64,000 bases of DNA from Bacteroidales bacterium (lineage in GTDB: Bacteria; Bacteroidota; Bacteroidia; Bacteroidales; JAAUTT01), in contig JBBQTB010000008.1 of assembly GCA_038213375.1 (NCBI GenBank), positions 75,180-139,179 of the forward strand. The letters run 5' to 3'. Both the position numbers and the translations under genes were made by a program. The notes beneath the pieces are model-generated. The model ran no database searches. It was not told the DNA's origin and saw only the letters and a list, made by a program, of their open reading frames with translations. The first letter of the stretch is position 1. Each line of letters starts with the position of its first letter. Positions 12,486 to 59,513 of the stretch are shown here, one piece after another.

Positions 12486-12495
12486 CGAAAAGCAT

Positions 12496-13344: not shown

Positions 13345-13348
13345 TCCT

Positions 13349-42589: not shown

Positions 42590-44374
42590 ATGGTTACAAA
42601 AAAAGTTAATAAATACGATTTTGGAGTCATAGGAAATTGTTCTTATCTTGGTTATATTGATACAAAGGCAAACGTAAACTGGTTATGTTTACCAAGGTTT
42701 GACAGTAGTTTTTTATTTGGATCACTTCTTGATCATGAAAAGGGTGGAGAATTCAGTATTTCTCCTGCTACGGACGATTATAAATCCAAACAGTACTATA
42801 TCAAGAATACCAATATATTAGCCACTGAATTTGAGATGGCTGAAGGCAGGTTTCGAGTGGTTGATTTTGCACCTCGTTTTTATCAATACGAACGTTATTT
42901 TAAGCCGTTAATGCTATTCCGAAAAATAGAACTGCTCGAAGGCAATCCTTTTATCTCAGTAGTATGCCGTCCCGTGGGCGATTATGGCTCAATGATACCT
43001 GAAACTGTGGGGGGCAGCAATCATATTCGTTTTTTGAATTTTAATACGCAGGTTCGCCTTACCACCGACATACCTTTAGGTTATATTTTAAGTAAAAAAT
43101 CGTTTGTTCTAACCGAAACAAAATATGCTGTATTTAGTTATGGCGTACCTCTGGAAGCGCCGCTGGCTGAAACTACTGAGTCGTTTCTTACTAAAACTAA
43201 AAAGTATTGGACCGATTGGGTAAAGGCTACTTCCGTTCCTAATATTTATCAGGATGAGGTAATTCGTTCTGCATTAGTGTTAAAGCTTCATCAATACGAA
43301 GATACAGGAGCTGTGATAGCTTCCGGAACAACCAGTTTACCCGAATTTAACGGCTCGCAGCGTACTTGGGATTACCGTTACTGCTGGATGCGTGATACAT
43401 ATTATACTCTAAACGCTTTTAATAATATCGGGCACTTTGAAGAATTGGAGAGTTACTTTCAATTTATTCAAAATATTATAATGAATGAAAAGCAACAAAT
43501 AAAGCCCTTGTATACCATTCTTGGCGATAGGGTTCCTAACGAAAAAATATTGCTTCTTGACGGATATCAGCATAACAAGCCTGTTAGAACAGGAAATAAC
43601 GCCATTGATCAGGTTCAGAACGATGTATATGGTCAGATTCTGATTAGTTTATTGCCATTATTTATTGATAAACGTCTGAATTATATTGATCGGAAAAAAA
43701 CCGAATTCATTACCGAATGGCTTCTCGATCGTATAGAAGAATATATGGACATTCCTGACTCAGGACTTTGGGAATTCGGAACAACAAATCAATTTCATTG
43801 TTACACATATTTGTTTCATTGGGCAGGGTGCAGGGCTGCTGCCAAAATTGGCAGGTTTATTGATAGTGATAGATTAATAAGAAAGGCGGAATCACTAACC
43901 AGACAATCGATTCTATTTATCGAAAAATGCTACAGTCCAACAAAACTGGCTTATACTCAGGCAGTAGGTAATGAACATCTGGACGCAAGTAATTTGCAAC
44001 TGATACTTATGAGTTACCTTAACCCGGGAAGCGATATAGCTATGAACCATTTAAAAGCACACGAAAAGGAGTTGTTCAGAGACGATAATTTATTTTTTAG
44101 ATACACCCGTGACGATTTAGGAAAGGCTGAAACTTCATTTCTAATTTGCGGTTTTTGGTATGCCGAGACGCTTGCAGCCACAGGACGGCTAGACAAGGCA
44201 CAAGAAATAATTGAAAAACTTCTGAAGTGTTCCAATCATTTAGGCTTATTTAGTGAGGATGCCGACGAAAACTTCGGACAATGGGGTAATTTTCCACAAA
44301 CATATAGCCATGTGGGATTGGTAAACGCCATTTATAAATTATCCATGAAGATTGATAAACCCATTTTTTTGTAA
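42590..44374 (+). CDS. GH15 glycoside hydrolase (glucoamylase/trehalase-like)
   Basis: N-terminal GVIGNCSYLGYID...NWLCLPRFDS, WDYRYCWMRDTYYTL, and the C-terminal (alpha/alpha)6 motif FPQTYSHVGLVNA. Confidence 0.8.
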   Translation: MVTKKVNKYDFGVIGNCSYLGYIDTKANVNWLCLPRFDSSFLFGSLLDHEKGGEFSISPATDDYKSKQYYIKNTNILATEFEMAEGRFRVVDFAPRFYQYERYFKPLMLFRKIELLEGNPFISVVCRPVGDYGSMIPETVGGSNHIRFLNFNTQVRLTTDIPLGYILSKKSFVLTETKYAVFSYGVPLEAPLAETTESFLTKTKKYWTDWVKATSVPNIYQDEVIRSALVLKLHQYEDTGAVIASGTTSLPEFNGSQRTWDYRYCWMRDTYYTLNAFNNIGHFEELESYFQFIQNIIMNEKQQIKPLYTILGDRVPNEKILLLDGYQHNKPVRTGNNAIDQVQNDVYGQILISLLPLFIDKRLNYIDRKKTEFITEWLLDRIEEYMDIPDSGLWEFGTTNQFHCYTYLFHWAGCRAAAKIGRFIDSDRLIRKAESLTRQSILFIEKCYSPTKLAYTQAVGNEHLDASNLQLILMSYLNPGSDIAMNHLKAHEKELFRDDNLFFRYTRDDLGKAETSFLICGFWYAETLAATGRLDKAQEIIEKLLKCSNHLGLFSEDADENFGQWGNFPQTYSHVGLVNAIYKLSMKIDKPIFL

Positions 44375-44377
44375 ACC

Positions 44378-46585
44378 ATGAAAACTTTTAGCGAACTGAG
44401 TTATAACAGGCTGGTAATTATTGCCTACCGATTACCGTTTAAGCTTGTGAAAAAGGGAAATGTTAATATAGCGGTCCAAAATGCCGGAGGTTTAGTTTCG
44501 GCCATTCTTTCGCTATCAGAAAAGATGAATATTAGTTCTGGTAGTGACTCGAAAATACTTTGGATTGGTACTGGTGAAAAACAGCTTGGGAAGGAAAATA
44601 TCAACCCAAAATTTGATCTTCTTCCTGTGGAAATTCCCGATCAAATAAACGATGAGTATTATGGGGGATTTTGCAACGATACTATCTGGCCTCTGTTTCA
44701 TTATTTTCCATCGCTTACCGTCTACAATCCAACTTATTATGAGTCGTATGCTAAAGCGAATCAAATTTTTGCCGATACACTCAAAGATGTAATCAAACCA
44801 GGCGATTTCATTTGGGTACACGATTACCAATTGTTTCATTTACCTTCACTTATACGAAGTTATTTTCCTGATGCCAAGATTGGTTTTTTCCTTCATATTC
44901 CATTTCCTTCCTCGGAACTTTTCCGGCATCTGCCCCGTACATGGCGCGAGTCAATCCTGAAAGGAATTATAGGGGCCGACCTAATTGGATTTCATACCAA
45001 TGACTATACTCAGCATTTTATCAAATCTGTTAAAAGGACACTTGGTTGCGAAATAAATCAAAATTACATCTACGTAGAGGATAGGATATGTAAGGTAGAT
45101 GCATTCCCGATTGGTATCGATTTTGATAAGTTTCACGAGGCTTGTTCTTTACCAAAGGTGCTTAAAGAAAAGGAACGATTAAAGAAGCAATTAAAGGGTA
45201 AAAAGCTAATTTTTTCGGTAGATCGGTTGGATTACACCAAAGGTTTCTTATATCGGCTGCTCGCTTATGAGCGTTTTCTGGAAAAATACCCAAAATGGCA
45301 TCAAAAGTCTGTTTTTAATATGGTCGTGGTTCCGTCAAGAGACAATATTGATCGGTATCGGGATATAAAAAAGGAAATTGAAGCCACCGTTGGCCGGATA
45401 AATGGAAACTATAGTAACTTGGCCTGGAGACCATTAATATATCAGTATAAATCACTGTCATTTGAGGAACTTATAGCTCTTTATGATATAAGTGACGTAG
45501 GATTAATAACTCCGCTGCGCGATGGAATGAATCTGGTTGCAAAGGAATATGTGGCGTGTCAAAAAGAAAACAATGGAATGCTGGTTTTAAGCGAGATGGC
45601 TGGCGCCGCGGTGGAGCTTAACGAAGCTATTATAATTAATCCAACCGATGTGGAAGAAACAGCTGATGCTATAGACAAAGCGCTTGGCCTCCCTCAAAAG
45701 GAAAAGGAGCAAAAAATACATAAAATGCAGAACCGGCTAAGTCGTTACAATGTTTTTACATGGGCGACCGATTTTTTTAATCAGGCAGAAGATGTTACAG
45801 ACAAACAAAAACAAATGAAAGTGAATTTTTTAGAACCTCATGCTTTAACCGATATACGATCAACGTATTGTAAAACTGGTAAACGAGTGATATTTATTGA
45901 TTATGACGGCACCTTAATACCATTATCAAAATATCCGGATATGGCAATTTTGAACGAAAGGGCGGGAAACACCATTAAAAAACTGATTGACGACACAAGA
46001 AATAAAGTAATCATTATCAGTGGCAGGGAATGTGAATTTCTTGAAAGGCAGTTTGAAGGTCTTGATGTGACACTTGTTGCCGAGCATGGCTATTTTGTAA
46101 AAAATCCCAAAAAGGATTGGATAACAAAAAACTCCGTAGATCTGGCCTGGAAAGAAAAATTTTTACCTATTATGAATGAGTATGTTGACCGTTGCAATGG
46201 ATCGATGATTGAAGAAAAACATGCCTCAATAGCTTGGCATTACCGAAATGCCGATGAAGGAATTGCTTCCATACGTATTAATGAACTAAAGGACGATTTG
46301 ACGGAAATTTTAAAGACCGACTCAAAACTTCAGGTGCTGGAAGGGAATAAGGTGCTGGAAATTAAAAGTGTACTTTATGATAAGGGTACGGCAGCTCTCG
46401 AATTTCTAAATAAAAAAAAATACGATTTCATTATGGCTATTGGCGATGATAAAACGGACGAAGATTTATTCAATGTAATACCTGAATATGGATTCACCAT
46501 TAAAATTGGAACTAATCCATCCAAAGCCAAATTCAATTTAAAAAGGCAATCCCAAATTTATGAGATTTTGGAATTTTTATGCTAA
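44378..46585 (+). CDS. otsAB: bifunctional trehalose-6-phosphate synthase (GT20) / trehalose-6-phosphate phosphatase (HAD)
   Basis: GT20 motifs FCNDTIWPLFHYF, VHDYQLFHLP and RDGMNLVAKEY. The C-terminal HAD motifs are IFIDYDGTL and GDDKTDEDLF. Confidence 0.9.
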   Translation: MKTFSELSYNRLVIIAYRLPFKLVKKGNVNIAVQNAGGLVSAILSLSEKMNISSGSDSKILWIGTGEKQLGKENINPKFDLLPVEIPDQINDEYYGGFCNDTIWPLFHYFPSLTVYNPTYYESYAKANQIFADTLKDVIKPGDFIWVHDYQLFHLPSLIRSYFPDAKIGFFLHIPFPSSELFRHLPRTWRESILKGIIGADLIGFHTNDYTQHFIKSVKRTLGCEINQNYIYVEDRICKVDAFPIGIDFDKFHEACSLPKVLKEKERLKKQLKGKKLIFSVDRLDYTKGFLYRLLAYERFLEKYPKWHQKSVFNMVVVPSRDNIDRYRDIKKEIEATVGRINGNYSNLAWRPLIYQYKSLSFEELIALYDISDVGLITPLRDGMNLVAKEYVACQKENNGMLVLSEMAGAAVELNEAIIINPTDVEETADAIDKALGLPQKEKEQKIHKMQNRLSRYNVFTWATDFFNQAEDVTDKQKQMKVNFLEPHALTDIRSTYCKTGKRVIFIDYDGTLIPLSKYPDMAILNERAGNTIKKLIDDTRNKVIIISGRECEFLERQFEGLDVTLVAEHGYFVKNPKKDWITKNSVDLAWKEKFLPIMNEYVDRCNGSMIEEKHASIAWHYRNADEGIASIRINELKDDLTEILKTDSKLQVLEGNKVLEIKSVLYDKGTAALEFLNKKKYDFIMAIGDDKTDEDLFNVIPEYGFTIKIGTNPSKAKFNLKRQSQIYEILEFLC

Positions 46586-48232: not shown

Positions 48233-50701
48233 CTACACCAATTGTATCTTAAGCGAATTAAATTCTTCTTTTAATTCTTCGCAAGCTTGATAGCAAACGT
48301 TTTCAAGCTTTAAAACCAATTCTTGTATTTGTTCAAGATGTTGCCGTGTGCGTGCATATTCCTGAACTTTTTTAGCCATATCTTCATAATCCTTGTGCAG
48401 TCCCACGATCGAAAATGAGGGGATCATTTTATGCACTGCCGAGGACAATAAATCCCAATCTTTATCGTGCAAACTTTTTTTCATTGTTAAAACCAGAGGT
48501 GGGGTTTGATCCAAATAAAGGGTAATTATCTCCATCATTAATGCCGGATTAGATTTTGTGCAATTGTTTAAATAAGTTAAATTAACACGTTTTGATTTGC
48601 CTGCCGGCGCAGCGGACAACATCTCTTTTTCCGCATTATTAGTTGTATCTTTTACTAGCAAAGGTTTTTTTAGCAATTCAATTATTTTACTATATAAAAT
48701 TTTTTCGTCAACAGGTTTTGAGATATAATCATTCATGCCAACAGCTTTGCATTTTGCTAAATCAACTGTGGTAACGTCGGCTGTTAAAGCGATGATGGGG
48801 ATTTTAGATTTCATTGTATTACGAATGTATTCTGTAGCTTCAAAACCATTCATTTCGGGCATCTGTAAGTCCATCAAAATAATATCATACTGATTATTTT
48901 GTAGCTTTTCGATAGCAATTTTTCCATTGTCGGCGATTTCACGTTCAAACCCAAAATCGTCCAACAGTGTTTTCATCAATAATTGATTGAGTGGAATGTC
49001 TTCGGCAACCAAAACTTTGATATTTTTAATATCCGTGATCAAGTTCTCAATTTCTGTTTCTAATACTGCTTCGTCGTTTGTTTTTGGGAAACTTAAAATG
49101 ATACTAAAAGTGGATCCCTCGTCTAATTTGCTTTTTACTCTAATGCTTCCACCTTGCTGTTCTACTAATTGTTTAACTATGGCAAGGCCTAATCCTGTTC
49201 CTCCAAACAATCTCGAGGTATCACTAGTTGCCTGCTGAAAGTTGTCAAAAATCTTTCCTATTTTAGTTTCGTCTATCCCAATTCCGGTATCGGTAACGGC
49301 AAATTCAATAGACACTTTCTCTTCATCTTCGCTTATTAAATGAACGCTTACTGTAATTTTTCCTTTAGAAGTAAACTTTACGGCATTACTCACTAAATTC
49401 AAAATAATTTGATGCAGTCGAACTGGATCTCCAATCAAAACCTCCGGAATTTCACAGTCATATTCTTTAACCAATTCTAAATTTTTTTCCTGGATTTTCG
49501 TCTCAAACAAATGGAGCATCGCAGATATGGATAAGGCCATTTTGAAAGGTGTTTTCTCAAATGTCATTTTCCCTGCATCTACTTTTGCCAAATCGAGGAT
49601 GTCGTTAATGAGCACGATTAAAGTATTGCCACTCATTTTTATAGCGGTTAAATATTCTTTTTGTTTAATCGATAAATCTGTTTTCAACACCACTTTTGTA
49701 AATCCGATAATCGCATTCATAGGTGTGCGAATTTCATGACTCATGTTCGACAAAAATTGCTGTTTTGCTTTCATTGCATTCTCTGCTATGAATGTAGCAC
49801 TTTCGGCTTTACTTTTTGCTTCTTCGGCAATTAAAGTGGCCAACTCGGCAAATACTTTTGCCTCAGTCAATTCTGTTGCAATTCTTTTTTGGGCAGTAAC
49901 ATCTCTGGCCACAATCACTACGCCCAACACATTTCTTTTGCCATCTTTATATACCGATCCGTTGAATAATACATCGGTCAACTTGCCTTCTATATGGCGA
50001 ATGGTAAGTGGTAAATCGGAAACAGATCCTTTTGCGAACACTTCCTGGTATACTTTCTGTGCCATTTCGGGTTCGGTGAAATAATCAAAGAAATCAGCTC
50101 CAATTAATTTCTCGCGTGATACTCCGGTTACTTTTATCGACGCATTATTAATATCAGTGATTTTTCCTTCAGGGCTAATGGCAAATAATGGGTCGTGGCT
50201 TGCTTCAATTAGACTAAGAGAATATTTGGTAAGTGATTTTTGGGCAGTAAGATCATTATTAAGAGCTTTCAGTTTTTCCTTTTGAACTAATAATTCATGG
50301 TTTTTCTTATACAGATCTACAAAAACAGCCACTTTTGCTTTCAATATTTCCGGAGAAAGTGGTTTAATCATATAGTCGACTCCACCTGCCTGATATCCTT
50401 TGAAAATATTTACAGAAGTGTCCATACTTGCAGTTAAAAAAATAATCGGAACATGTTTGAGTTTTTCAATTTGGCGAATTAATTCTACTGTTTCAAATCC
50501 ATCCATTACAGGCATTTGCACATCCATTAATATCATGGCAAAACCTTGTTCGCGGCGAAGAATTTTTAATGCTTCCATGCCTGAACTTGCTTTCACACAT
50601 AAATAATTTTCATTGGAAAGAATTACTTCTAAGGCAAACAAATTTTCTGCCCGATCGTCTACCATTAAAATTTTGACAAGACCATTCACGTCCATTTTCA
50701 A
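48233..50701 (-). CDS. hybrid sensor kinase: REC - PAS - HisKA - HATPase_c - REC - HPt
   Basis: REC 1 (ILMVDD...ILMDVQMPVMDG), PAS (SLIEASHDPLFAISPEGKITDIN), H-box SHEIRTPMN, G-boxes DTGIGI / GGTGLGL, REC 2 (ILMDLQMPEMNG), and HPt (AVHKMIPSFSIVG). Confidence 0.85.
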   Translation of the reverse strand: MKMDVNGLVKILMVDDRAENLFALEVILSNENYLCVKASSGMEALKILRREQGFAMILMDVQMPVMDGFETVELIRQIEKLKHVPIIFLTASMDTSVNIFKGYQAGGVDYMIKPLSPEILKAKVAVFVDLYKKNHELLVQKEKLKALNNDLTAQKSLTKYSLSLIEASHDPLFAISPEGKITDINNASIKVTGVSREKLIGADFFDYFTEPEMAQKVYQEVFAKGSVSDLPLTIRHIEGKLTDVLFNGSVYKDGKRNVLGVVIVARDVTAQKRIATELTEAKVFAELATLIAEEAKSKAESATFIAENAMKAKQQFLSNMSHEIRTPMNAIIGFTKVVLKTDLSIKQKEYLTAIKMSGNTLIVLINDILDLAKVDAGKMTFEKTPFKMALSISAMLHLFETKIQEKNLELVKEYDCEIPEVLIGDPVRLHQIILNLVSNAVKFTSKGKITVSVHLISEDEEKVSIEFAVTDTGIGIDETKIGKIFDNFQQATSDTSRLFGGTGLGLAIVKQLVEQQGGSIRVKSKLDEGSTFSIILSFPKTNDEAVLETEIENLITDIKNIKVLVAEDIPLNQLLMKTLLDDFGFEREIADNGKIAIEKLQNNQYDIILMDLQMPEMNGFEATEYIRNTMKSKIPIIALTADVTTVDLAKCKAVGMNDYISKPVDEKILYSKIIELLKKPLLVKDTTNNAEKEMLSAAPAGKSKRVNLTYLNNCTKSNPALMMEIITLYLDQTPPLVLTMKKSLHDKDWDLLSSAVHKMIPSFSIVGLHKDYEDMAKKVQEYARTRQHLEQIQELVLKLENVCYQACEELKEEFNSLKIQLV

Positions 50702-50720
50702 TATAAATTATAGTTGTTGT

Positions 50721-53651
50721 TTAATTACTTAACCATACACGCATCAATGATAGCAATCGATCAACATCAATAGGCTTAGTAATGTAATCATTGGCCCCCG
50801 CATCGATGCATTTTTGTTTATCATCTTTCATGGCTTTAGCTGTGAGGGCAATTACAGGCAGACTCTTGAACCTGCTCTGAGCGCGAATACGTTTCATTGC
50901 TTCGTAACCATCCATTTCCGGCATCATAATATCCATCAATACCAGATCAATGTCAGGATGCATATCCAGCATCTCTAATGCATTTTTTCCATTATCGGCT
51001 TTTATTATTTCCATTCCACGCTCTTTTAATATGGTGGACAATGCAAAAACATTCGGCACATTATCATCTACCAATAATATTTTTTTCGCCTCAAAAATAA
51101 CTTCATTACCGTAAGGATTACTTATCACTGGTTGTTTTGCTTTAGGTAAATTATTAATGGTTCGGTTAAAAAAAACAGCCGTTTCATCCAGCAATCTTTC
51201 TTCCGATTTTATACCTTTTATAATTATGCACTCCGCATATTTCTGAAGTACCTTATTTTCTTCTTTTGTAAGCTCCTTACCGGTGTAAACAATTATAGGC
51301 GGAATGTTATAACCTTTAATATTATCCAGTTTATTAATAAGTTCGAAACCGTTCATATCTGGCAAACCAATATCTAATATAATACAATCGATATGATTTT
51401 TCTGGCATATTGCCAGGGCATCATTGCCTGTTTCTGCTTCAAAACAATTTACATCACTATTTCCAATGAGGATGCGTATGGCTTTTCTGGAATTTTCATT
51501 GTCTTCTATGATAAGCAGGTTTTTTATTTTTCTGCTAACAAAATTTTCAATTCTGTTAAATACATCTTCCAGATCTTTTTTCTCAATCGGTTTCATCAGA
51601 TACTCTACCGCTCCTTCCCGGATTGTTCCAGACGAACTTTCATTTACCGAAATAATATGCACCGGTATATGCTTGATGGATGGATTTGCTTTTAATTCAA
51701 TCAATACCTGATGCCCTTTTATGCCTGGCAGACCCATATCAAGAATGATCGCTAGCGGTATATGTTTTGAAGCAAGCAATAAACCATCTTCTCCGGTGGC
51801 AGCCGACAAACATTTGAATCCTTTTTTGTTGGCTTGCTTTAAAAGTATTGAAGCAAATTTCAGATCGTCTTCAATAATGAGTACAACTTTATCATTCTTG
51901 ATTATGGTATCTCTGTCATCTTTAATAGAGGGATAATTAAGATATTGGGTATTGTTTACAGAGAGAGGTTTATATAAATCATGTTCTTTAATTGTGCTAA
52001 CAGTTTCCTGTTCCACTTGCAATTCAAGAGGTATAATTAGAGAAAATGTTGATCCTTCATTTAATTTACTTTTTAACTTAATTTGAGCTCCTAATAATTT
52101 TGCGAGTTCGCGTGAAATAGAAAGTCCTAAACCCGTACCGCCATATTTTCGCGAGGTTCCTCCATCAGCTTGTTGAAAAGCTTCAAATATGGCCATTTGT
52201 TTGTCTTCCGGTATTCCAATACCTGTATCGGTAACGGAAATATTCACCATACTATCTGTATATCGGTCGATACGTATACTTACACTTCCCTCTTCTGTAA
52301 ACTTTATGGCGTTAGATAAAAGATTTTTCATTATCTGATTCAAACGCTGTGGATCAGTGTGGATAAATCCGGGCAATTCTTTATCCAATTTGCAAGTTAG
52401 GGTCAATCCTTTTTGTTCAGCATGATGTTTAAAATCGCGAATGAGCTCGTATGTAAAATTGCTTAGTGATATGCTTTCAATATTTATTGACATTTTCCCT
52501 GCTTCAATCTTTGAAAGGTCAAGAACTTCATTAATTAATACAAGCAGGTCATGACCACTTTTATAAATTATTTCTGCGCTTTCTACCTGGATGCTGTCAA
52601 GGTTTTTCTTTCTGTTTTCAGATAAATCTTTTGACAGGATAAGCAAACTATTAAGTGGGGTTCTTAATTCATGCGACATGTTTGCAAGAAATTCCGACTT
52701 ATACTTGCTGCTTATTTCCAGTTGTTTTGTTTTCTGTTCAATGTCGTTTTTTGCAGCTTCAACTTCCTGGTTTTGAAATGCAAGTTCCTTGTTAGCGAGG
52801 CTTAACTCCGCTGCTCGTTTTTCCTTCTCTTCGTTTTGAAATGCAAGTTCCTTGTTAGCAAGGCTTAACTCCGCTGCCCGTTTTTCCTTCTCTTCGTTTT
52901 GAAAAGCAAGTTCTTTGTTAGCAAGGCTTAACTCCGCTGCCCGTTTTTCCTTCTCTGCATTTTGAAAAGCAAGTTCTTTGTTAGCAATACTTAATTCCGC
53001 TGCCCGTTTTTCCTTCTCATCGTTTTGAAAGACCAGTTCTTTATTAGCAATGCTTAACTCCGCTGCCCGTTTTTCCTTCTCATCATTTTGAAAAACCAGC
53101 TCTTTATTGGCAATGATTAACTCCGCTGCCCGTTTTTCCTTCTCATCGTTTTGAAAGACCAGTTCTTTGTTAGCAATGATTAATTCCGCTGCCCGTTTTT
53201 CTTTCTCTTCGTTCTGAAAAACAAGTTCTATATTAGCAATGCTTAATTCAGCGGCCCGTTTTTCCTTCTCTTCGTCTTGAAATGCCAGTTCTTTGTTAGC
53301 AATGATTAATTCGCCTGCCCGTTTTTCCTTCTCTTCGTCTTGAAAGACCAGTTCTTTGTTAGCAATGATTAATTCTCCTGCCCGTTTTTCTTTCTCTTCG
53401 TCTTGAAAAGCAAGTTCTACATTAGCAATGATTAATTCTCCTGCCCGTTTGCCTTTCTCTTTGTCCTGAAAAGCAAGTTCAATGTTAGCAATGCCTAATT
53501 CTGCTGCTCGTTTTCCTTTCTCTTCTTTTTGAAAAGCAAGTTCCTGACGAGCAATGATTAATTCCGCTGCCAGTTTTATATTCTCTTCTTTTTGAAAAGC
53601 AAGTTCTTTGCGGGTAATAAATAACTCATCCAATTTTTTTTTGTCAGGCAT
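50721..53651 (-). CDS. hybrid kinase with no TM or sensor domain: 13.5 x 21-aa tandem repeats - HisKA - HATPase_c - 3 REC
   Basis: Residues 16-288 are ELAFQ[KDN][EDA]EKEKRA[AG]EL[IS][IL]AN[KI] x13. These are followed by H-box SHELRTPLN, DTGIGI / GGTGLGL, and three REC domains (IILDMGLPG, IILDIGLPDMNG, VLMDIMMPEMDG). Confidence 0.85.
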   Translation of the reverse strand: MPDKKKLDELFITRKELAFQKEENIKLAAELIIARQELAFQKEEKGKRAAELGIANIELAFQDKEKGKRAGELIIANVELAFQDEEKEKRAGELIIANKELVFQDEEKEKRAGELIIANKELAFQDEEKEKRAAELSIANIELVFQNEEKEKRAAELIIANKELVFQNDEKEKRAAELIIANKELVFQNDEKEKRAAELSIANKELVFQNDEKEKRAAELSIANKELAFQNAEKEKRAAELSLANKELAFQNEEKEKRAAELSLANKELAFQNEEKEKRAAELSLANKELAFQNQEVEAAKNDIEQKTKQLEISSKYKSEFLANMSHELRTPLNSLLILSKDLSENRKKNLDSIQVESAEIIYKSGHDLLVLINEVLDLSKIEAGKMSINIESISLSNFTYELIRDFKHHAEQKGLTLTCKLDKELPGFIHTDPQRLNQIMKNLLSNAIKFTEEGSVSIRIDRYTDSMVNISVTDTGIGIPEDKQMAIFEAFQQADGGTSRKYGGTGLGLSISRELAKLLGAQIKLKSKLNEGSTFSLIIPLELQVEQETVSTIKEHDLYKPLSVNNTQYLNYPSIKDDRDTIIKNDKVVLIIEDDLKFASILLKQANKKGFKCLSAATGEDGLLLASKHIPLAIILDMGLPGIKGHQVLIELKANPSIKHIPVHIISVNESSSGTIREGAVEYLMKPIEKKDLEDVFNRIENFVSRKIKNLLIIEDNENSRKAIRILIGNSDVNCFEAETGNDALAICQKNHIDCIILDIGLPDMNGFELINKLDNIKGYNIPPIIVYTGKELTKEENKVLQKYAECIIIKGIKSEERLLDETAVFFNRTINNLPKAKQPVISNPYGNEVIFEAKKILLVDDNVPNVFALSTILKERGMEIIKADNGKNALEMLDMHPDIDLVLMDIMMPEMDGYEAMKRIRAQSRFKSLPVIALTAKAMKDDKQKCIDAGANDYITKPIDVDRLLSLMRVWLSN
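52788..53606 (-). repeat. in-frame 63-bp tandem repeat array (13 full units plus a partial 14th)
   Basis: Directly visible in DNA, for example near-identical units at about 52800-52990. The protein units number 13. The kinase-proximal copies are identical in triplets or pairs, and the N-terminal copies are more diverged. Confidence 0.9.
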
Positions 53652-53662
53652 TTCCTATTTTA

Positions 53663-56170
53663 TTAATTACTTAACCATACTCGCATCAAAGATAGCAAAC
53701 GTTCTATATCAATTGGCTTAGTGATATAATCGTTAGCGCCGGCATCGATGCAGTTTTGTTTATCGTCTTTCATGGCTTTTGCTGTGAGTGCAATTACAGG
53801 TAGGTCCTTTAACCTTCTCTGAGATCGTATTTTTCTCATTGCTTCGTAACCGTCCATTTCGGGCATCATAATATCCATCAATACCAGGTCAATATCGGAA
53901 TGCAGATCCAACATATCCAACGCATTTTTTCCATTATCTGCTTTTATTATTTCCATTCCGCGTTCATTTAATATTTTTGATAATGCAAATACGTTTCTCA
54001 TATCATCATCTACCAATAATATTTTTTTCATGTGGAATAAAGCTTCTTTATCGTACAAATTAGATATAATCAATTGTTTTGATTTCGGTAAATTACTTAT
54101 CGTTCTGTGCAGGAAAAGAGCGGTTTCATCCAGTAATCGTTCTTCCGATTTTACACCTTTTATTATAATGCTTTCTGCATAATTCTGAAGTTCATTGTTT
54201 TCTTCTTTCGTAAGCTCCTTGCCAGTGTAAACAATAATAGGAGGTATGTTAATGTCTTTTATATTCTTTAGCTTATGGATAAGTTCAAAACCATTCATGT
54301 CCGGCAAGCCAAGATCCAGTATCATACAATCAATATGATTTTCCCGGTATATTGTCAGTGCATCCTTGCCGTTACCTGCTTCAAAACATTTTACATCACC
54401 ATTGCCGATGAGTATACGCATTGCTTTTCTGGAAGTTTCATTATCTTCGATGATGAGCAGGTTTTTTATTTTTCTGCTTACAAAATTTTCAATTCTGTTA
54501 AATGCATCCTCCAGTTCTTTTTTATTTATAGGTTTCATCAGATACTCCACAGCTCCTTCTTTAATCGATTCCAGCGAACGTTCCTTTGCCGAAATAATAT
54601 GTACCGGAATATGTCTTATGGTTGGATTTGCTTTTAATTCGGTCAATACCTGATGTCCCTTAATACCTGGCAGCCCCATATCAAGAATGATCGCTTGCGG
54701 TTTGTGTTTTGAAGCAAGAAATAAACAATCTTCTCCGGTGGCAGCCGACAAACATTTGAATCCTTTTTTGTTGGCTTGTTTTAAAAGTATTGAAGCAAAT
54801 TTCAGATCGTCTTCAACAATAAGAACAACTTTATCATCCTTGGTAATAGTATTTCTGTCATCTTCAATGGTGGGATAATTAAGATATTTGGCAGCATTTA
54901 CCGAAAGAGGTTTATAAACAGATGATTCTTTAGTATCGGTTCTGGTAGATTCCTGCTCATATTCTATTTCAATTGGAATAATCACTGAAAAAGTGGAACC
55001 TTCATTTATCGTACTGTTCACTTTAATTTCAGCTCCTAATAATTTTGCAAGTTGACGTGATATAGAGAGACCTAAACCCGTGCCCCCATACTTTCGTGAA
55101 GTTCCGCCATCAGCCTGTTGAAAAGCTTCAAATATTGACATTTGTTTTTCCTGAAGTATTCCAAGGCCTGTATCGGTAACGGAAATAACCAATGTGCTTT
55201 CTGTAAAGCGGTCAATAAGTATACTTACACTTCCTTTTTCGGTGAATTTTATGGCATTGGATAAAAGATTTTTCAATATCTGATTTAAACGTTGTAAATC
55301 GGTACGGATAGATTCGGGCAATTCTTTGTTTAATTTGCAAGTCAATATCAACCCTTTTTGTTCGGCGTGATGTTTAAAATTGCGAATGAGCTCATCTGCA
55401 AATTTTCTCAATGATATGCTTTCAATATTTATTGACATTTTACCTGCTTCAATTTTGGAGAGGTCAAGAACTTCGTTAATTAATACAAGCAGATCGTTCC
55501 CACTTTTATAAATAATTTCTGCACTTTCTATCTGTATGCTATCCAGGTTTTTCTTTCTGTTCTCAGCTAAATCTTTTGATAGGATAAGCAAACTATTAAG
55601 CGGTGTTCTTAGCTCATGTGACATGTTTGAAAGAAATTCCGATTTATACCTGCTGCTTATTTCCAGTTGTTTTGTCTTCTTTTCAATGTCGTTTTTTGCG
55701 GTTTCTACTTCTTCATTTTTCATTTTCAATGCCTGAGTTTGTTCTTCCAGTTCCTCATTGGACATTTGTAATTCCTCCTGCTGTTGTTTCAGATTTTGGG
55801 TCTGTTCTTCCAGTTCTTCATTCATATGCTTCAACTCTTCCTGCTGAGTTTGAAGTTCTTCGGCTTGAGAGGCAAGTTCGTTATTGGCAATGCCCAACTC
55901 CGTTGCTCGTTTTTCTTTCTCAGCGTTTTGAAAGGCCAGTTCTTTGTTGGCTATTCTTAGTTCTGCTGCGCGGTTTTCTTTCTCATCATTTTGATAAGCT
56001 AATTCTTTATTCGCAATACCCAACTCCGATGCTCGTCTTTCTTTTTCATCGTTTTGAAAGGCAAGCTCTTTGTTGGCTACTTTTAATTCTGCTGCCCGGT
56101 TTTCTTTCTCATCATTTTGATATGCTAGTTCTTTATTGGCAATACCCAACTCCGATGCTCGTTTTTCTTT
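53663..56170 (-). CDS. kinase module of an interrupted sensor kinase: 21-aa repeats - Q/E-rich heptad segment - HisKA - HATPase_c - 3 REC
   Basis: Same frame as 56171..57481 and contiguous with it. There is no ATG near the 5' end: the track start at 56149 is the TTG inside ...SELGIANK, and the first in-frame ATG is about 105 codons in. H-box SHELRTPLN and three REC domains. Close paralog of 50721..53651. Confidence 0.75.
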   Translation of the reverse strand, partial: KEKRASELGIANKELAYQNDEKENRAAELKVANKELAFQNDEKERRASELGIANKELAYQNDEKENRAAELRIANKELAFQNAEKEKRATELGIANNELASQAEELQTQQEELKHMNEELEEQTQNLKQQQEELQMSNEELEEQTQALKMKNEEVETAKNDIEKKTKQLEISSRYKSEFLSNMSHELRTPLNSLLILSKDLAENRKKNLDSIQIESAEIIYKSGNDLLVLINEVLDLSKIEAGKMSINIESISLRKFADELIRNFKHHAEQKGLILTCKLNKELPESIRTDLQRLNQILKNLLSNAIKFTEKGSVSILIDRFTESTLVISVTDTGLGILQEKQMSIFEAFQQADGGTSRKYGGTGLGLSISRQLAKLLGAEIKVNSTINEGSTFSVIIPIEIEYEQESTRTDTKESSVYKPLSVNAAKYLNYPTIEDDRNTITKDDKVVLIVEDDLKFASILLKQANKKGFKCLSAATGEDCLFLASKHKPQAIILDMGLPGIKGHQVLTELKANPTIRHIPVHIISAKERSLESIKEGAVEYLMKPINKKELEDAFNRIENFVSRKIKNLLIIEDNETSRKAMRILIGNGDVKCFEAGNGKDALTIYRENHIDCMILDLGLPDMNGFELIHKLKNIKDINIPPIIVYTGKELTKEENNELQNYAESIIIKGVKSEERLLDETALFLHRTISNLPKSKQLIISNLYDKEALFHMKKILLVDDDMRNVFALSKILNERGMEIIKADNGKNALDMLDLHSDIDLVLMDIMMPEMDGYEAMRKIRSQRRLKDLPVIALTAKAMKDDKQNCIDAGANDYITKPIDIERLLSLMRVWLSN
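55703..55879 (-). other. Q/E-rich heptad (coiled-coil) segment ELASQAEELQTQQEELKHMNEELEEQTQNLKQQQEELQMSNEELEEQTQALKMKNEEVE
   Basis: Read from the translation. Present only in this paralog and absent from 50721..53651. Confidence 0.8.
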
Positions 56171-56305
56171 CTAATCGTTTTGAAAGGCTAGCTCTTTGAT
56201 CGCTATTCTCAACTCTGCCGCCCGTTTTTCCTTCTCGTCGTTTTGGTATGCTAGTTCATTGTTCGCAATGGCTAACTCTGCAGCTCGTTTTTCTTTCTCT
56301 TCACT
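55880..56305 (-). repeat. 63-bp / 21-aa repeat array spanning the in-frame TAG (about 6.8 units, alternating ELAYQ..R/K-I/V-ANK and ELAFQ..GIANK)
   Basis: SEEKEKRAAELAIANN ELAYQNDEKEKRAAELRIAIK ELAFQND*KEKRASELGIANK ELAYQNDEKENRAAELKVANK ELAFQNDEKERRASELGIANK ELAYQNDEKENRAAELRIANK ELAFQNAEKEKRATELGIANN. Confidence 0.9.
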
Positions 56306-57481
56306 CTGAATTTGTGTTTCTTCAAGCAATTCCAATATCTGTTTTCTGTCAATAGCTGAGTTTACGCTAATGGCAATAATGTCCATAGAAACATTGATAA
56401 ATTCCGTTTGTGTTTTGCTGAAGTTAGTTAGACTGCCAATTTCTATTACACCCAATGTTTTACCTTCAAACAAAAAAGGAGTAATAAGCAAATGTTTTGG
56501 TTTGGCATTCAGAACAGATGAGGTTATTCGTATGTGTTCTTCGGTTATATCTGTTAAAGAAATTGGTTTCTGTTCTCGCGCCGCTTGTCCTATTAACCCT
56601 TCATTTATTGTAAATTTTTCTTTCACTTCTTTAGGAGACGCAAAGGCATATTGACCGCGAAGCACCAGTGTATTGTCTTTATCATTAAAGATGTAAACAG
56701 CACCTATATTTGCTTTTAGGTATGTGCATAAAAAACTAATTGAATTGGTTGCCAGCTCTTCTATTCGCTGTACTCCTATTAATTTTTCGCTAAGCTTCGA
56801 GTTACCGGTAAGTAGCCAGTTTTTACTTACGGTTTCCGCTTCGGCTCTTTCCAGTGCTCTTAAATTTGTAGTAACTATATTGTATACAATAATAAGAATA
56901 ACAACAATGATCAATAATAGGATGGCAAAAACAACATTAAAAGTTCCGGCATCGCTATCACTGGTTTTTTTTCGTTCGGCAATTAATGGATGTTCTATTC
57001 CCTGTGCCCTATCAATTATTTCTCTTATCCTATCTTCTATTCGTTTTCCTTCACCCGAAGCTACAAATTCTTTGGCTATTGCAAAATCCTTTTTTCGAAG
57101 TTCTATGCATCTGTTAAAAAAACTATTTTGCTTTTTAAATTCCTTCTGAAGTTCCTCAATATTCTTTTGCTGATTAAGATTATCTTTTGTTAATTCCTTT
57201 ACTTTATTAAGATGTTCAAATCCTTTTGCATTGGCATTTAAATAGGGTTCCAGAAAATTATCATCGCCTGTTATAACAAACCCCCGTATGCCTGTTTCAC
57301 CATCAATGGAAGCAACTAATATTTGCTCAAATTCATACAATACCTGGTTGGTATGATTTATCAACGCATTTGAAGCTACAAATTTCTCGCTATTTTTAAA
57401 AGTAAAAATTGCAACTCCGAAAAGGATCAAAACACAAGCAATAAATCCTAATAATATTTTTCTACTAAATGTAATTTCCAT
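56171..57481 (-). CDS. sensor module: TM - CHASE3 - TM - GAF - 21-aa repeats, ended by in-frame TAG 56171-56173
   Basis: The CHASE3-like region (HTNQVLYEFEQIL...ETGIRGFVITGDDNFLEPY) is flanked by two TM helices. GAF-like region (ISFLCTYLKANIGAVYIF...GLIGQAA...GVIEIGS). C-terminal repeats. Confidence 0.8.
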   Translation of the reverse strand: MEITFSRKILLGFIACVLILFGVAIFTFKNSEKFVASNALINHTNQVLYEFEQILVASIDGETGIRGFVITGDDNFLEPYLNANAKGFEHLNKVKELTKDNLNQQKNIEELQKEFKKQNSFFNRCIELRKKDFAIAKEFVASGEGKRIEDRIREIIDRAQGIEHPLIAERKKTSDSDAGTFNVVFAILLLIIVVILIIVYNIVTTNLRALERAEAETVSKNWLLTGNSKLSEKLIGVQRIEELATNSISFLCTYLKANIGAVYIFNDKDNTLVLRGQYAFASPKEVKEKFTINEGLIGQAAREQKPISLTDITEEHIRITSSVLNAKPKHLLITPFLFEGKTLGVIEIGSLTNFSKTQTEFINVSMDIIAISVNSAIDRKQILELLEETQIQSEEKEKRAAELAIANNELAYQNDEKEKRAAELRIAIKELAFQND

Positions 57482-57485
57482 TTTA

Positions 57486-58064
57486 TTATTTGTAAAGTTG
57501 GAGTTGTGTTAATTTTATTAATAAATCGATTATTCCTTCAAGGGATAAAATATAATCCACCTGCATAGCTGCAATTGCTGAAGCTGGCATGCAGCTGGAT
57601 TCTGCGGTGGACGGATCCTGAACAATTGTTAAACCACCGTATTCTTTTATTAGTTTCAAGCCCTTTGTCCCATCACTATTTGAGCCCGTTAGTATCACTC
57701 CAATCAATTTGTTTTTATAGGCTTCGGCAGCCGATTCAAAAAGAACATCAATGGATGGTCTTGCAAAATTTACACGTTCATCTATGGATAGAGAAAATGT
57801 TTTATTTTTTTCGAGAAGCAAATGATAATTAGGTGGAGCAATGTAAATTTTTCCATGTTCAATTTTTTCCTTTTCATCGGCTTCTTTTATTTCGAGATTG
57901 CTTTTATCATTTAAAAGTCTTATCCAAAGGTTTTCAGAATTCGCACTTAAATGTTGCACAATAATAATTGGAATGTTAAATTCCTTTGGTAAAAGAGAAA
58001 ACATGGTTTTCATCGCATTCATTCCGCCGGAAGAAACCCCTATTACAATTGCTTCATAATCCAT
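57486..58064 (-). CDS. cheB: CheB-type protein-glutamate methylesterase/glutaminase, catalytic domain only (no REC)
   Basis: 192 aa. Catalytic-triad contexts GVSSGG (Ser), IIVQHL (His) and TGSNSDGT (Asp). Confidence 0.85.
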   Translation of the reverse strand: MDYEAIVIGVSSGGMNAMKTMFSLLPKEFNIPIIIVQHLSANSENLWIRLLNDKSNLEIKEADEKEKIEHGKIYIAPPNYHLLLEKNKTFSLSIDERVNFARPSIDVLFESAAEAYKNKLIGVILTGSNSDGTKGLKLIKEYGGLTIVQDPSTAESSCMPASAIAAMQVDYILSLEGIIDLLIKLTQLQLYK

Positions 58065-58204
58065 TGTCTTTATTATTATTCTGGTAAGGGTATTAGTTTT
58101 AATAACTCATCTTAGTGAAGGCGATGTACCATTATTGATTCATTTATAATGCGAATTAAGAGGGAGGTAAACCTTAATTGCCATCCGTTTTAGACGTTAC
58201 ATTT

Positions 58205-59029
58205 TTAATATTTTTTTTTAAATATTCGTTGTTGTTTATCCAACTCAGTGTATTCATCATGAAAATTAGAAAACCGTAAACCCTCTTTTGAACCCAAACA
58301 TAAAATTCCACCATCAATCAAGCTGTCATAAAAAAGTTTTTGTACTTCATTTTGTAAATTTCTATCAAAATAAATAAGCACATTTCTGCATAATATCAAA
58401 TGTACCTCGGCAAATACACTATCAGTTACCAAATTATGATTTGCCCAAACAATATTTTTTTTTAGTGATTGATTCATGATAACGTTATCATCATCGGAAA
58501 TATAATAATTCGAAAAAGATTCCTTACCTCCCGACAATTGATAATTGGAAGTGTATTCTTTCATCATTTTGTTGGAAAAAATTCCTTGTTTCGCGTAGTT
58601 CAGCGCTTGTTGATTAAAATCTGTGGCATATATCGTAGTTCTGTCATACAAGCCCTCCTCCTGTAAAATAATCGACATTGAATACGCTTCTTCGCCTGTG
58701 GAACAGCCAGCGTGCCATATTTTTATAAAAGAATAAGTTTTTAAAACGGGTATAACTTTTGCCCTCACTGATCTGTAAAAGCCCGGGTCACGAAACATTT
58801 CGGTAACCGTTATTGAAAGATCTTGTAATAGACTGAAAGTGAATGTTTCATCATACAGAACCTTCGATTGCATTTGAGAAATATTCTCTAGTCCCGACAT
58901 CCTCATTTTGTTCATAATCCTTCGTCTGATGTGGGATTCGGAATACTGCCTGAAATCGTAACCGTATTTCTGATAAATAACTTCTAATAAGGATGAAATT
59001 TCCAGTTCCGTTGTATCTTTATATTTCAA
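58205..59029 (-). CDS. cheR: CheR-type protein-glutamate O-methyltransferase
   Basis: TEMFRD, IWHAGCSTGEEAYS and CRNVLIYF motifs. The track start is a TTG and there is no in-frame ATG upstream. Confidence 0.85.
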   Translation of the reverse strand: MKYKDTTELEISSLLEVIYQKYGYDFRQYSESHIRRRIMNKMRMSGLENISQMQSKVLYDETFTFSLLQDLSITVTEMFRDPGFYRSVRAKVIPVLKTYSFIKIWHAGCSTGEEAYSMSIILQEEGLYDRTTIYATDFNQQALNYAKQGIFSNKMMKEYTSNYQLSGGKESFSNYYISDDDNVIMNQSLKKNIVWANHNLVTDSVFAEVHLILCRNVLIYFDRNLQNEVQKLFYDSLIDGGILCLGSKEGLRFSNFHDEYTELDKQQRIFKKKY

Positions 59030-59255
59030 TTTTATAAAGTAATTTTTCTCATTGTGTTCCGTCGTTTATAATCTGTTATTAAGTTCAGGTTTAAGTGAAT
59101 AAATGGTATAAAGTTTCAATTAAATTTACCTGTTTTTAATGATTAATTTTTGGCGGCAAGTAAAGTTAAATTGTATTTAAAGAGTTACACAATTCTTAAT
59201 AAAGATTACAATATTCACACATTATTATGTGCGTGTTAATTTTATTTCTTTCTTA

Positions 59256-59483
59256 GTTCTACTTTACGAAGTTGTTTATGATTTATTTTCAATTTATAAG
59301 CCCTGTAAGGGCAAAATATATCAGCCCAGCCTAACGGGCTGGGTAAAATAACCGATAATAAATTTAGGCCTGAAAGGTCGAAATATTATTAACTTTAAGT
59401 GCTTGATCCAATTAACCCGACGCTTCGCAGCTGGCTGGTCTATATCGCACTTTCAGTGCTTATTTAAGTTCGTAAAGTAGAAC
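59256..59483. repeat. 228-bp MITE-like element with 18-bp terminal inverted repeats and internal hairpin modules
   Basis: GTTCTACTTTACGAAGTT (59256-59273) against AAGTTCGTAAAGTAGAAC (59466-59483), 17 of 18 complementary. Internal modules are GCCCTGTAAGGGC + A/T spacer + CCCAGCC-TAACG-GGCTGGG in forward orientation, and a diverged copy (GCACTGAAAGTGC...) in inverted orientation. Confidence 0.6.
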
Positions 59484-59513
59484 CTAATTTAAACTAATAA
59501 TTGTTTTTACATC

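What the first reader, a model, noticed from the sequence alone, without database searches (positions are those of the whole stretch)
48233..59029. CheR/CheB-linked phosphorelay operon with no receptor, CheA or CheW: candidate methylation-adapted kinase system
Seen in sequence:
- Six co-directional minus-strand reading frames are packed with tiny gaps of 4, 0 (an in-frame TAG), 11 and 19 bp. A 140-bp gap follows cheR.
- Gene order is CheR, then CheB (192 aa, catalytic domain only, no REC), then TM-CHASE3-TM-GAF-repeats, then repeats-Q/E segment-HisKA-HATPase-3xREC, then repeats-HisKA-HATPase-3xREC, then REC-PAS-HisKA-HATPase-REC-HPt.
- That gives 3 kinase cores, 8 receiver domains and 1 HPt. 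There is no DNA-binding output domain and no MCP, CheA or CheW in the window.

Established knowledge: CheR methylates, and CheB demethylates or deamidates, Glu/Gln pairs on long antiparallel coiled coils of chemoreceptors. Bacteroidota are generally non-flagellated.

Inference: the substrates here are the kinases themselves (the E/Q-rich helical repeats). This would give a sensory-adaptation layer acting directly on a multi-step phosphorelay. I recall CheB-CheR-PAS-HK fusion proteins in other genomes. This locus would be the same logic split into separate genes, which makes each step experimentally separable.
Basis: partly seen in the sequence, partly recalled or inferred. Interest (0 to 1): 0.85.

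Follow-up and report, generated by a model that had tools for sequence, protein, structure and literature searches.

The report
CheR/CheB-linked hybrid kinase operon
This is a Bacteroidota copy of a widespread gene cassette, known in Pseudomonas as cfcABCD, in which chemotaxis-type methylation enzymes sit next to a sensor kinase instead of a chemoreceptor; what those enzymes modify is still unproven.

Summary
Six co-directional minus-strand frames have the stated gaps and domains. There is no MCP, CheA or CheW in the 64 kb.

Two corrections:
- Frames 3 and 4 are one gene (TM-CHASE3-TM-GAF-coil-HisKA-HATPase-3xREC) cut by a TAG. That gene is intact in all six relatives read.
- The 21-residue repeats are not Glu/Gln-rich. 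They hold no Glx pairs, are missing from close relatives, and occur on many unrelated signalling proteins.

The conserved feature is a Glu/Gln-rich heptad coiled coil between GAF and the phospho-acceptor His.

In 80 loci from more than 10 phyla that encode this CheR clade (42-80% identical, against 26% to E. coli CheR):
- such a kinase ends just upstream of cheR in 61 of 67 loci with enough DNA;
- a REC-less cheB follows in 63 of 80;
- an MCP appears in 1 of 80, and CheW or a true CheA in none.

The Pseudomonas putida member matches the published cfcABCD cluster.

Kinase methylation is plausible but untested. The canonical MCP methylation consensus is absent, and homologous coil-bearing kinases exist without CheR/CheB.

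Verdict: a new member of a known but mechanistically unresolved cassette, of moderate interest.

The parts
58205..59029 (-). cheR: protein-glutamate O-methyltransferase of the kinase-linked clade (274 aa, TTG start aligned with Met1 of orthologues)
   Evidence: Pfam CheR_N + CheR. R98, E129, D154 and Y235 (E. coli numbering) are conserved. It is 80-100% identical to 120 Bacteroidota clusters, 42-58% to kinase-linked CheRs of other phyla, and 26% to E. coli CheR. It has a clade-specific insertion N[YH]Q.[SA]G[GA] before the beta-subdomain.
58065..58204 (-). 140-bp non-coding gap between cheR and cheB (about 0-60 bp or overlapping in most relatives; about 540 bp in two Alcanivorax-type loci)
   Evidence: No terminator-like site on this strand.
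57486..58064 (-). cheB: methylesterase/deamidase catalytic domain only, no receiver domain (192 aa)
   Evidence: Pfam CheB_methylest spans residues 6-181. The Ser164/His190/Asp286 triad is conserved.
56171..57481 (-). 5' part of the sensor kinase gene: TM-CHASE3-TM-GAF plus the first 1.7 repeats, ending at the in-frame TAG (56171-56173)
   Evidence: Pfam CHASE3 and GAF. The TAG sits where the repeat consensus has GAG. Orthologues are single ORFs. TAG is an ordinary stop in 7 other genes of the window.
53663..56170 (-). 3' part of the same gene: repeats, Q/E coil, HisKA (His = residue 622 of the read-through product), HATPase_c, 3 REC
   Evidence: It is in frame with the 5' part. The kinase and REC part is 79-83% identical to orthologues, as they are to each other, so there is no sign of decay.
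55898..56278 (-). Six 21-aa (63-nt) repeats, consensus ELxIANKELAFQNDEKEKRAA, with a two-unit higher-order pattern
   Evidence: No Pfam family. No Glx pairs. Lineage-specific: present in L001, absent in L004, L005 and L090.
55619..55897 (-). Glu/Gln-rich heptad coiled coil running without a break into the H-box; candidate methylation region
   Evidence: 19 Glu and 12 Gln in 72 aa, with 15 Glx pairs. Leu falls every 7 residues in register with the His. EE precedes Leu in 6 of 10 heptads, near the top of the range in the family (7 in two of 55 loci).
50721..53651 (-). Paralogous sensor-less hybrid kinase: 13 x 21-aa repeats (nt 52746-53564), no Q/E segment, HisKA-HATPase_c-3 REC
   Evidence: It is 80.6% nt and 81% aa identical to the 3' part of the split gene. 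It is absent from L001, L004, L005 and L090.
48233..50701 (-). REC-PAS-HisKA-HATPase_c-REC-(HPt) hybrid kinase, counterpart of the REC-kinase gene that follows cheB in other phyla (CfcD position)
   Evidence: The HPt is sub-threshold. A REC/kinase gene follows cheR-cheB in 52 of 68 loci.

Best explanation
The locus is the Bacteroidota form of a conserved cassette that works without a chemoreceptor. The cassette has four parts: a membrane sensor hybrid kinase of the CfcA/BmsA type, a dedicated CheR, a CheB without a receiver domain, and a second REC-(PAS)-kinase.

Shown: the gene content, the intact catalytic residues, the clade identity of the CheR, and the deep conservation of the linkage.

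Inferred mechanism:
1. A periplasmic signal at CHASE3 and a cytoplasmic signal at GAF travel down one long dimeric coiled coil into the phospho-acceptor helix.
2. CheR methylates, and CheB demethylates or deamidates, the Glu/Gln pairs that sit just before each core Leu of that coil (f/g positions).
3. This changes the charge and stability of the coil, and so resets kinase output.
4. Feedback comes from the conformation of the substrate rather than from CheB phosphorylation, because CheB has no receiver domain.
5. Phosphate then passes through the receiver domains to the REC-PAS-kinase-HPt protein, and on to an unlinked response regulator. In Pseudomonas that regulator is the diguanylate cyclase CfcR.

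In this genome the primary sensor kinase gene is interrupted by a TAG. A sensor-less paralogue carrying the same 21-aa repeats is also present.
For: Anatomy and enzymes:
- Domains.
- CheR and CheB catalytic residues conserved.
- No MCP, CheW or CheA in the window.

Linkage in 80 loci with this CheR clade, from more than 10 phyla:
- A GAF-coil kinase ORF ends within 500 nt upstream of cheR in 61 of 67 loci with enough DNA.
- cheB follows in 63 of 80.
- An MCP is present in 1 of 80, CheW in none, a true CheA in none.

The coil:
- The CheR-adjacent kinases have Leu at 9.56 of 10 heptad positions and 39% Glx upstream of the His. Other kinases in the same loci score 4.2 and 3.9 of 10, with 19% and 17% Glx.
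- The [NSTQ]EEL motif is in one fixed heptad register with the His in 217 of 228 cases.
- Nearly all coil lengths, and every motif-to-His distance outside one locus with an inserted PAS domain, differ by whole heptads.

Clade and homology:
- CheR identity is bimodal: at least 42% for kinase-linked copies, then 34% or less.
- The same cassette sits on plasmids of R. wittichii and A. vitis, and without cheB in D. deserti.
- The P. putida locus L064 shows HK-cheR-cheB-REC/HK with overlapping genes. This matches the published cfcABCD, where CfcB/CfcC are said to have no role in chemotaxis (PMC4951495).
- Independent CheB-CheR-PAS-kinase fusions also carry a NEEL heptad coil.
- One CheR of the clade is fused to REC-GGDEF-EAL.
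Against: - No experiment shows a kinase being methylated.
- The canonical MCP site consensus is absent from the window kinases and from all 65 coils.
- Homologous GAF-coil kinases occur with no CheR/CheB nearby, in Streptomyces, Novosphingobium, Mesorhizobium and Azospirillum. The coil is therefore not made only to be methylated.
- EE-heptad counts in linked (mean 2.6) and unlinked (mean 1.25, n=4) kinases overlap.
- Gln usage at the EE positions does not differ clearly between loci with and without cheB.
- Bacillota and Deinococcus versions have no cheB.
- In P. putida, mutants in the other cfc genes keep the crinkly colony phenotype (unpublished statement in PMC4951495).
- The absence of MCPs from the whole genome could not be checked.
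Confidence: 0.5

Rival explanations
1. CheR/CheB of this cassette modify another partner, not the sensor kinase coil. Candidates are the downstream REC-(PAS)-kinase, a receiver domain, or the output response regulator.
For: - A REC/kinase gene follows cheR-cheB in 52 of 68 loci.
- One CheR of the clade is fused to REC-GGDEF-EAL.
- The coil lacks the canonical CheR site consensus and exists without CheR/CheB.
Against: - The downstream kinases have no Glx-rich coil: Glx 0.19, Leu-heptad 4.2 of 10. Window frame 6 has 0 EE heptads.
- The most constant neighbour of cheR is the GAF-coil kinase (61 of 67 loci).
- All known CheR substrates are Glu on long coiled coils (established knowledge).
Confidence: 0.2
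2. This is classical adaptation. The CheR/CheB pair acts on chemoreceptors encoded elsewhere in the genome, and its position next to kinases reflects co-regulation only.
For: - Many hosts of the cassette (Pseudomonas, Paenibacillus, rhizobia) do have MCPs.
- The whole genome of the window's organism could not be searched.
Against: - MCP in 1 of 80 loci, CheW and CheA in none.
- The clade is only 26% identical to E. coli CheR, with a clear identity gap to canonical CheRs.
- The cassette occurs in Deinococcus and in gliding Bacteroidota. The window has GldE- and SusC-like genes. These groups generally lack chemotaxis genes (own knowledge).
- PMC4951495 states that a chemotaxis role of P. putida CfcB/CfcC has been ruled out.
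- From memory of Garcia-Fontana 2013, which I could not open, CheR3 did not methylate the MCPs tested.
Confidence: 0.08
3. In this particular genome the system is damaged. The TAG is a real nonsense mutation that removes the kinase half from the sensor, so the operon is partly or wholly non-functional. Alternatively it works as a split sensor plus a sensor-less paralogue.
For: - A single G-to-T change sits in a conserved repeat codon.
- All six relatives read have an intact ORF.
- TAG is a normal stop in this window.
- A sensor-less paralogue with the same repeats and its own ATG exists only here.
Against: - The downstream 836 codons are open and as conserved as the orthologues. The change is therefore very recent, a sequencing error, or tolerated.
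- No read data are available.
- This rival is compatible with the main explanation for the family as a whole.
Confidence: 0.4

Closest known systems
Pseudomonas putida cfcABCDE cluster (CfcA = PP_3761, a CHASE3/GAF hybrid kinase; CfcB/CfcC = CheR/CheB; CfcD = a REC-containing protein), which signals to the diguanylate cyclase CfcR
   Same: - CHASE3-GAF-coil-HisKA-HATPase-REC kinase.
- CheR of the same clade (49-52% identity to Pseudomonas copies).
- A 191-aa CheB without REC.
- A following REC-kinase gene.
- The same Q/E heptad coil in register with the His.
- No MCP, CheA or CheW nearby.
- Literature: PMC4951495, PMC6849547.
   Different: - Gene order: cheR-cheB-HK-HK here, HK-cheR-cheB-HK there.
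- Six extra 21-aa repeats inserted before the coil.
- An extra sensor-less paralogous kinase.
- The last kinase has PAS and a probable HPt.
- The sensor kinase gene is split by a TAG.
- No GGDEF response regulator was identified in the window.
- Different phylum.
Pseudomonas alkylphenolica bmsA cluster (BmsA, a CHASE3/GAF hybrid kinase next to CheR, CheB and a hybrid kinase)
   Same: The same four-gene content, as described in PMC8175716 (citing Lee et al. 2016). It is linked to biofilm and motility, not chemotaxis.
   Different: Known to me only from that description. The sequence was not compared directly. The differences are the same as for cfc.
Canonical chemotaxis adaptation system (MCP + CheR + CheB-REC with CheA/CheW)
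   Same: - CheR and CheB folds and catalytic residues.
- The candidate substrate is a long, acidic, heptad-periodic coiled coil with Glx pairs spaced 7 residues apart.
   Different: - No MCP, CheA or CheW.
- CheB lacks the receiver domain.
- The MCP methylation consensus is absent.
- CheR is only 26% identical to E. coli CheR.
CheB-CheR-PAS-histidine kinase fusion proteins (for example S. meliloti pSymA, Nitrobacter hamburgensis plasmid 3, Nostoc flagelliforme plasmid)
   Same: - Methylation enzymes are tied to a histidine kinase without an MCP.
- A NEEL-type heptad coil lies in the same polypeptide.
   Different: - The enzymes are fused to the kinase.
- The CheR is of another clade (25-31% identity).
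- The coil precedes a PAS_10 domain rather than the H-box.
- Two of the three carry HWE-type kinase cores.

Membership tests
cfc/bms-type CheR-CheB-hybrid kinase cassette | [quoted passage not shown] | tested here: met
   Pfam CHASE3 9.4e-32 and GAF_2 5.6e-13, then HisKA, HATPase_c and 3 REC in the read-through product.
cfc/bms-type CheR-CheB-hybrid kinase cassette | cheR and cheB adjacent to the kinase on the same strand, with a further REC-containing kinase | tested here: met
   The pattern recurs in 61 of 67, 63 of 80 and 52 of 68 related loci.
cfc/bms-type CheR-CheB-hybrid kinase cassette | CheR belongs to the same clade as the Pseudomonas cluster CheR (CfcB) | tested here: met
   48-52% identity to the CheR of six Pseudomonas loci, including P. 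putida L064. Identity to other CheRs drops to 34% or less and is 26% to E. coli CheR.
cfc/bms-type CheR-CheB-hybrid kinase cassette | Kinase activates a REC-GGDEF-EAL regulator (CfcR) and so controls c-di-GMP | not testable with these tools
   cfcR is unlinked in P. putida (PMC4951495). No GGDEF gene was seen among the 26 window ORFs scanned. One clade member is a CheR-REC-GGDEF-EAL fusion.
Canonical chemosensory pathway | MCP signalling domain, CheA and CheW present | tested here: not met
   tblastn with E. coli Tar, Tap, CheW and CheA against the window gives no hits beyond REC and HATPase similarity. This covers the window only, not the whole genome.
Canonical chemosensory pathway | CheB carries an N-terminal receiver domain for CheA feedback | tested here: not met
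   192 aa, aligns only to E. coli CheB residues 159-319.
Canonical chemosensory pathway | Substrate carries the methylation consensus [ASTG][ASTG]xx[EQ][EQ]xx[ASTG][ASTG] (consensus quoted from memory of Alexander and Zhulin 2007) | tested here: not met
   The pattern recovers Tar sites 295, 302, 309 and 491. It gives 0 matches in the three window kinases and 0 in the 65 coils.
Canonical chemosensory pathway | Catalytically competent CheR and CheB | tested here: met
   CheR R98, E129, D154 and Y235, and CheB S164, H190 and D286, are conserved. The closest solved structure is B. subtilis CheR 5FTW, E=9e-31.
CheB-CheR-PAS-kinase fusion proteins | CheB, CheR and kinase in one polypeptide | tested here: not met
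   Separate genes here. The fusions were verified elsewhere.

The most novel reading that the evidence does not exclude
A receptor-free sensory adaptation system. A dedicated CheR/CheB pair reversibly methylates Glu pairs on the signalling coiled coil of a transmembrane hybrid histidine kinase. This gives two-component phosphorelays in more than ten phyla, including non-chemotactic ones, the memory and adaptation so far known only for chemoreceptors. The 21-aa repeats may additionally let the split sensor and the sensor-less kinase pair up.
Probability: 0.4. Interest if true: 0.8.

Novelty: new member of a known kind. Interest (0 to 1): 0.5.

Why it matters
If CheR/CheB really methylate the kinase coil, adaptation by reversible methylation would not be confined to chemoreceptors. 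It would be a general control layer on two-component signalling. In Pseudomonas it would bear on biofilm and c-di-GMP control.

The comparative data gathered here define where to look:
- a discrete CheR clade;
- near-obligate linkage to one kinase family;
- Glu pairs in a fixed heptad register with the phospho-acceptor His.

The experiment is more practical in P. putida (cfcABCD) than in this organism, where the sensor kinase gene carries a stop codon.

As a finding in this window it is one more copy of a cassette present in very many genomes. The CheR search of the 50%-identity representatives gave 1,325 clusters at E<=1e-30; the best 150 are 35-57% identical to the query.

Tried and rejected
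- **21-aa repeats as CheR substrate: rejected.** They have no Glx pairs, are lineage-specific, and are widespread on unrelated proteins.
- **TAG reassignment or read-through: rejected.** TAG ends 7 other genes in the window.
- **Canonical methylation consensus in the kinases:** absent.
- **Lower Gln at the EE positions in loci without cheB:** 0.08 against 0.10-0.14, not informative.
- **More EE heptads in CheR-linked than in unlinked kinases:** 2.6 against 1.25, but only 4 unlinked kinases and overlapping ranges. Inconclusive.
- **Exact look-up of the frame-3 product, to identify the source genome:** not on record.
- **Literature:** Garcia-Fontana 2013 and Tagua 2022 could not be opened. Ten searches found no paper reporting methylation of a histidine kinase by CheR. 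That is absence within this library only.
- **Sigma-70 promoter scan:** not above shuffles, and not suited to Bacteroidota.
- **Docking of CheR on the coil by structure prediction:** not attempted. The tool returns no contacts and refuses chimeric sequences.


Full report
**Observation**

The six minus-strand reading frames, their coordinates and their gaps (140, 4, 0, 11 and 19 bp) are as reported. Pfam gives:
- CheR_N + CheR for 58205-59029;
- CheB_methylest alone for 57486-58064;
- CHASE3 + GAF for 56171-57481;
- HisKA-HATPase_c-3 REC for each of the next two frames;
- REC-PAS-HisKA-HATPase_c-REC for 48233-50701.

The C-terminal HPt is a sub-threshold match: E=5.4e-4, 20.6 bits against a 24.6 cutoff. 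tblastn with E. coli Tar, Tap, CheW and CheA finds no chemoreceptor, CheW or true CheA anywhere in the 64 kb. There is no terminator-like site on the coding strand inside the operon. Other genes in the window are GldE-like, SusC-like and NrfA, which fits a Bacteroidota chromosome.

**Two corrections to the anatomy**

First, frames 3 and 4 are one gene.
- The TAG at 56171-56173 replaces the GAG of a repeat unit (FQND*KEKRA).
- TAG is an ordinary stop in seven other genes of the window.
- All six relatives read encode a single 1,157-1,278-aa sensor kinase.
- The part downstream of the TAG is as similar to orthologues (79-83%) as they are to each other.
- The change is therefore very recent, an error, or tolerated.

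Second, the repeats have a 21-residue period, three heptads, with consensus ELxIANKELAFQNDEKEKRAA. There are six copies in the split gene and 13 in frame 5.
- They contain no Glu/Gln pair.
- They are absent from relatives whose CheR is 81-90% identical.
- They occur at the N-terminus of at least 1,863 PAS, GGDEF, HD-GYP and kinase proteins. None of the 120 listed has a CheR or CheB domain.
- They are a generic coiled-coil module, not a CheR-specific feature.

Frame 5 is a diverged paralogue of the kinase half (80.6% nt, 81% aa identity). It has no sensor and no Q/E segment.

**The conserved core**

Between GAF and the H-box lies a Glu/Gln-rich coil (SQAEELQTQQEELKHMNEELEEQTQNLKQQQEELQMSNEELEEQTQAL...). 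I aligned 70 kinases from CheR-linked loci, anchored on the phospho-acceptor His.
- Leu occupies every seventh position (91-100%) for at least 11 heptads.
- The two residues before each Leu are mostly Glu.
- The other core position is mostly Gln.
- The [NSTQ]EEL motif sits in one register in 217 of 228 cases.
- Nearly all coil lengths (81, 88, 95, 102, 109, 116 aa) differ by whole heptads, and every motif-to-His distance is a multiple of 7 outside one locus with an inserted PAS domain.

The coil is therefore continuous with the DHp helix.

**Linkage**

The window CheR is 80-100% identical to 120 clusters from Flavobacterium, Paludibacter, Ferruginibacter and others. Neighbourhoods in Bacteroidota show cheR-cheB-sensor/GAF/kinase-REC/PAS/kinase, with either CHASE3 or 4HB_MCP(+HAMP) as sensor.

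A scan of one genome per species with a CheR alignment returned 80 loci at 42-80% identity. They come from Pseudomonas, Stutzerimonas, Alcanivorax, Sphingomonas, Gemmatimonadota, cyanobacteria, Paenibacillus and Neobacillus, Deinococcus, Desulfobacterota, Acidobacteriota, Planctomycetota, Verrucomicrobiota, Myxococcota and Bacteroidota. In these loci:
- a GAF-coil kinase ORF ends within 500 nt upstream of cheR in 61 of 67 with enough DNA;
- a REC-less cheB follows in 63 of 80 (missing in Bacillota and Deinococcus);
- a REC/kinase gene follows in 52 of 68;
- an MCP-like hit occurs in 1 of 80, CheW in none, a true CheA in none.

As an internal control, I compared kinases within the same loci. 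Those next to cheR have a Leu-heptad score of 9.56 of 10 and 39% Glx. The others score 4.2 and 3.9 of 10, with 19% and 17% Glx.

In the plasmid collection CheR identity is bimodal: at least 42% for kinase-linked copies, then 34% or less. Annotated examples are:
- R. wittichii pSWIT01 (Swit_5353-5356);
- A. vitis pAtS4c;
- D. deserti plasmid 2.

CheR and CheB keep their catalytic residues throughout.

**Comparison with what is known**

The P. putida locus L064 has HK-cheR(273 aa)-cheB(191 aa)-REC/HK with overlapping genes, and the same coil. This is the published cfcABCD arrangement.
[quoted passage not shown] - CfcD carries a receiver domain (PMC4951495, PMC6849547).
- The bmsA cluster of P. 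alkylphenolica has the same content (PMC8175716).

The cassette is therefore known genetically. I found no paper in the library that identifies the substrate of its CheR/CheB, and two key papers could not be opened.

**Does CheR methylate the kinase?**

For:
- the near-obligate, often translationally coupled linkage;
- the absence of chemoreceptor genes nearby;
- occurrence in lineages that generally lack chemotaxis (own knowledge);
- a substrate-like acidic heptad coil with Glx pairs every seven residues;
- independent CheB-CheR-PAS-kinase fusions that also carry a NEEL heptad coil.

Against:
- the canonical MCP consensus recovers all four Tar sites but has no match in the window kinases or in 6,993 aa of coils;
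- homologous GAF-coil kinases exist with no CheR/CheB nearby, in Streptomyces fungicidicus p1, N. aromaticivorans pNL2, Mesorhizobium and Azospirillum;
- two sequence tests for a methylation signature were inconclusive.

I rate kinase methylation at about 0.4-0.5.

**Verdict**

The locus is a new member of a known, mechanistically unresolved cassette, with local peculiarities: gene order, repeat insertion, an extra paralogue and a nonsense codon.

Noticed in passing
window 59299-59343 (-), within the 484-nt intergenic region 59030-59513: Rfam Acido-Lenti-1 (RF01687) hit just at threshold: 37.3 bits against 37, E=7e-5. It overlaps a terminator-like GC-rich hairpin (59341-59322) about 270 nt upstream of cheR on the same strand. 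It could be a leader element or chance.
   Followed up: no
window 53663-53700 and 50721-50760 (C-termini of frames 4 and 5); 63 related loci: All 63 GAF-coil kinases whose C-termini were read (all but one next to cheR) end with a motif at or within 9 residues of the C-terminus. Its core RVW is conserved in about 59 of them, within SL[ML]RVW[LM] (here LLSLMRVWLSN). It may simply be the last helix of the final REC domain, or a docking site analogous to the NWETF pentapeptide of MCPs.
   Followed up: partly
window 52746-53564 and 55898-56278: The 21-aa repeat (ELxIANKELAFQNxEKEKRAA) has no real Pfam family; the only match is a sub-threshold, evidently spurious PH_SLA1 hit. It is found at the N-terminus of many short PAS, GGDEF, HD-GYP and kinase proteins, mostly in Bacteroidota (1,863 hits at E<=1e-5). 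It appears to be an undescribed signalling coiled-coil module, and might mediate pairing between proteins that carry it.
   Followed up: partly
protein P0139 (representative library): A CheR of this clade is fused to REC-GGDEF-EAL, the CfcR-type output. Several others are CheR-CheB or CheB-CheR fusions (P0126, P0128, P0153, P0164).
   Followed up: partly
L036, L041, L043, L044, L048, L049, L051-L053, L069, L070, L073, L080, L089; L006: The Bacillota and Deinococcus versions of the cassette have cheR next to the coil kinase but no cheB. This implies methylation without a dedicated esterase, or an esterase encoded elsewhere.
   Followed up: no
window 58500-58560 (CheR residues ~158-170): There is a clade-specific 8-residue insertion with a conserved N[YH]Q.[SA]G[GA] motif, and a 4-residue deletion, around the beta-subdomain relative to E. 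coli CheR. It may determine a different substrate specificity.
   Followed up: no
window 42590-46585 (+): Trehalose genes (a GH15 trehalase-like gene and a fused trehalose-6-P synthase/phosphatase) lie convergent to the end of the operon. P. putida CfcA is reported to respond to salts (title of Tagua 2022, cited in PMC12125118). The neighbourhood is not conserved in L001 or L004, so this is probably coincidence.
   Followed up: no
window 23767-25431 (+): A DNA methyltransferase matches the MADS2 (methylation-associated defence system) model at 256 bits, below its 720-bit cutoff. It is followed by two more co-directional ORFs, which suggests a possible defence island.
   Followed up: no
L092 (Streptomyces fungicidicus p1) 4853-14396: A homologous HAMP/GAF-coil kinase without CheR/CheB is followed by a SpoIIE phosphatase, three STAS proteins and an anti-sigma regulatory factor. 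The same coil-kinase core is therefore wired to a partner-switching cascade.
   Followed up: no
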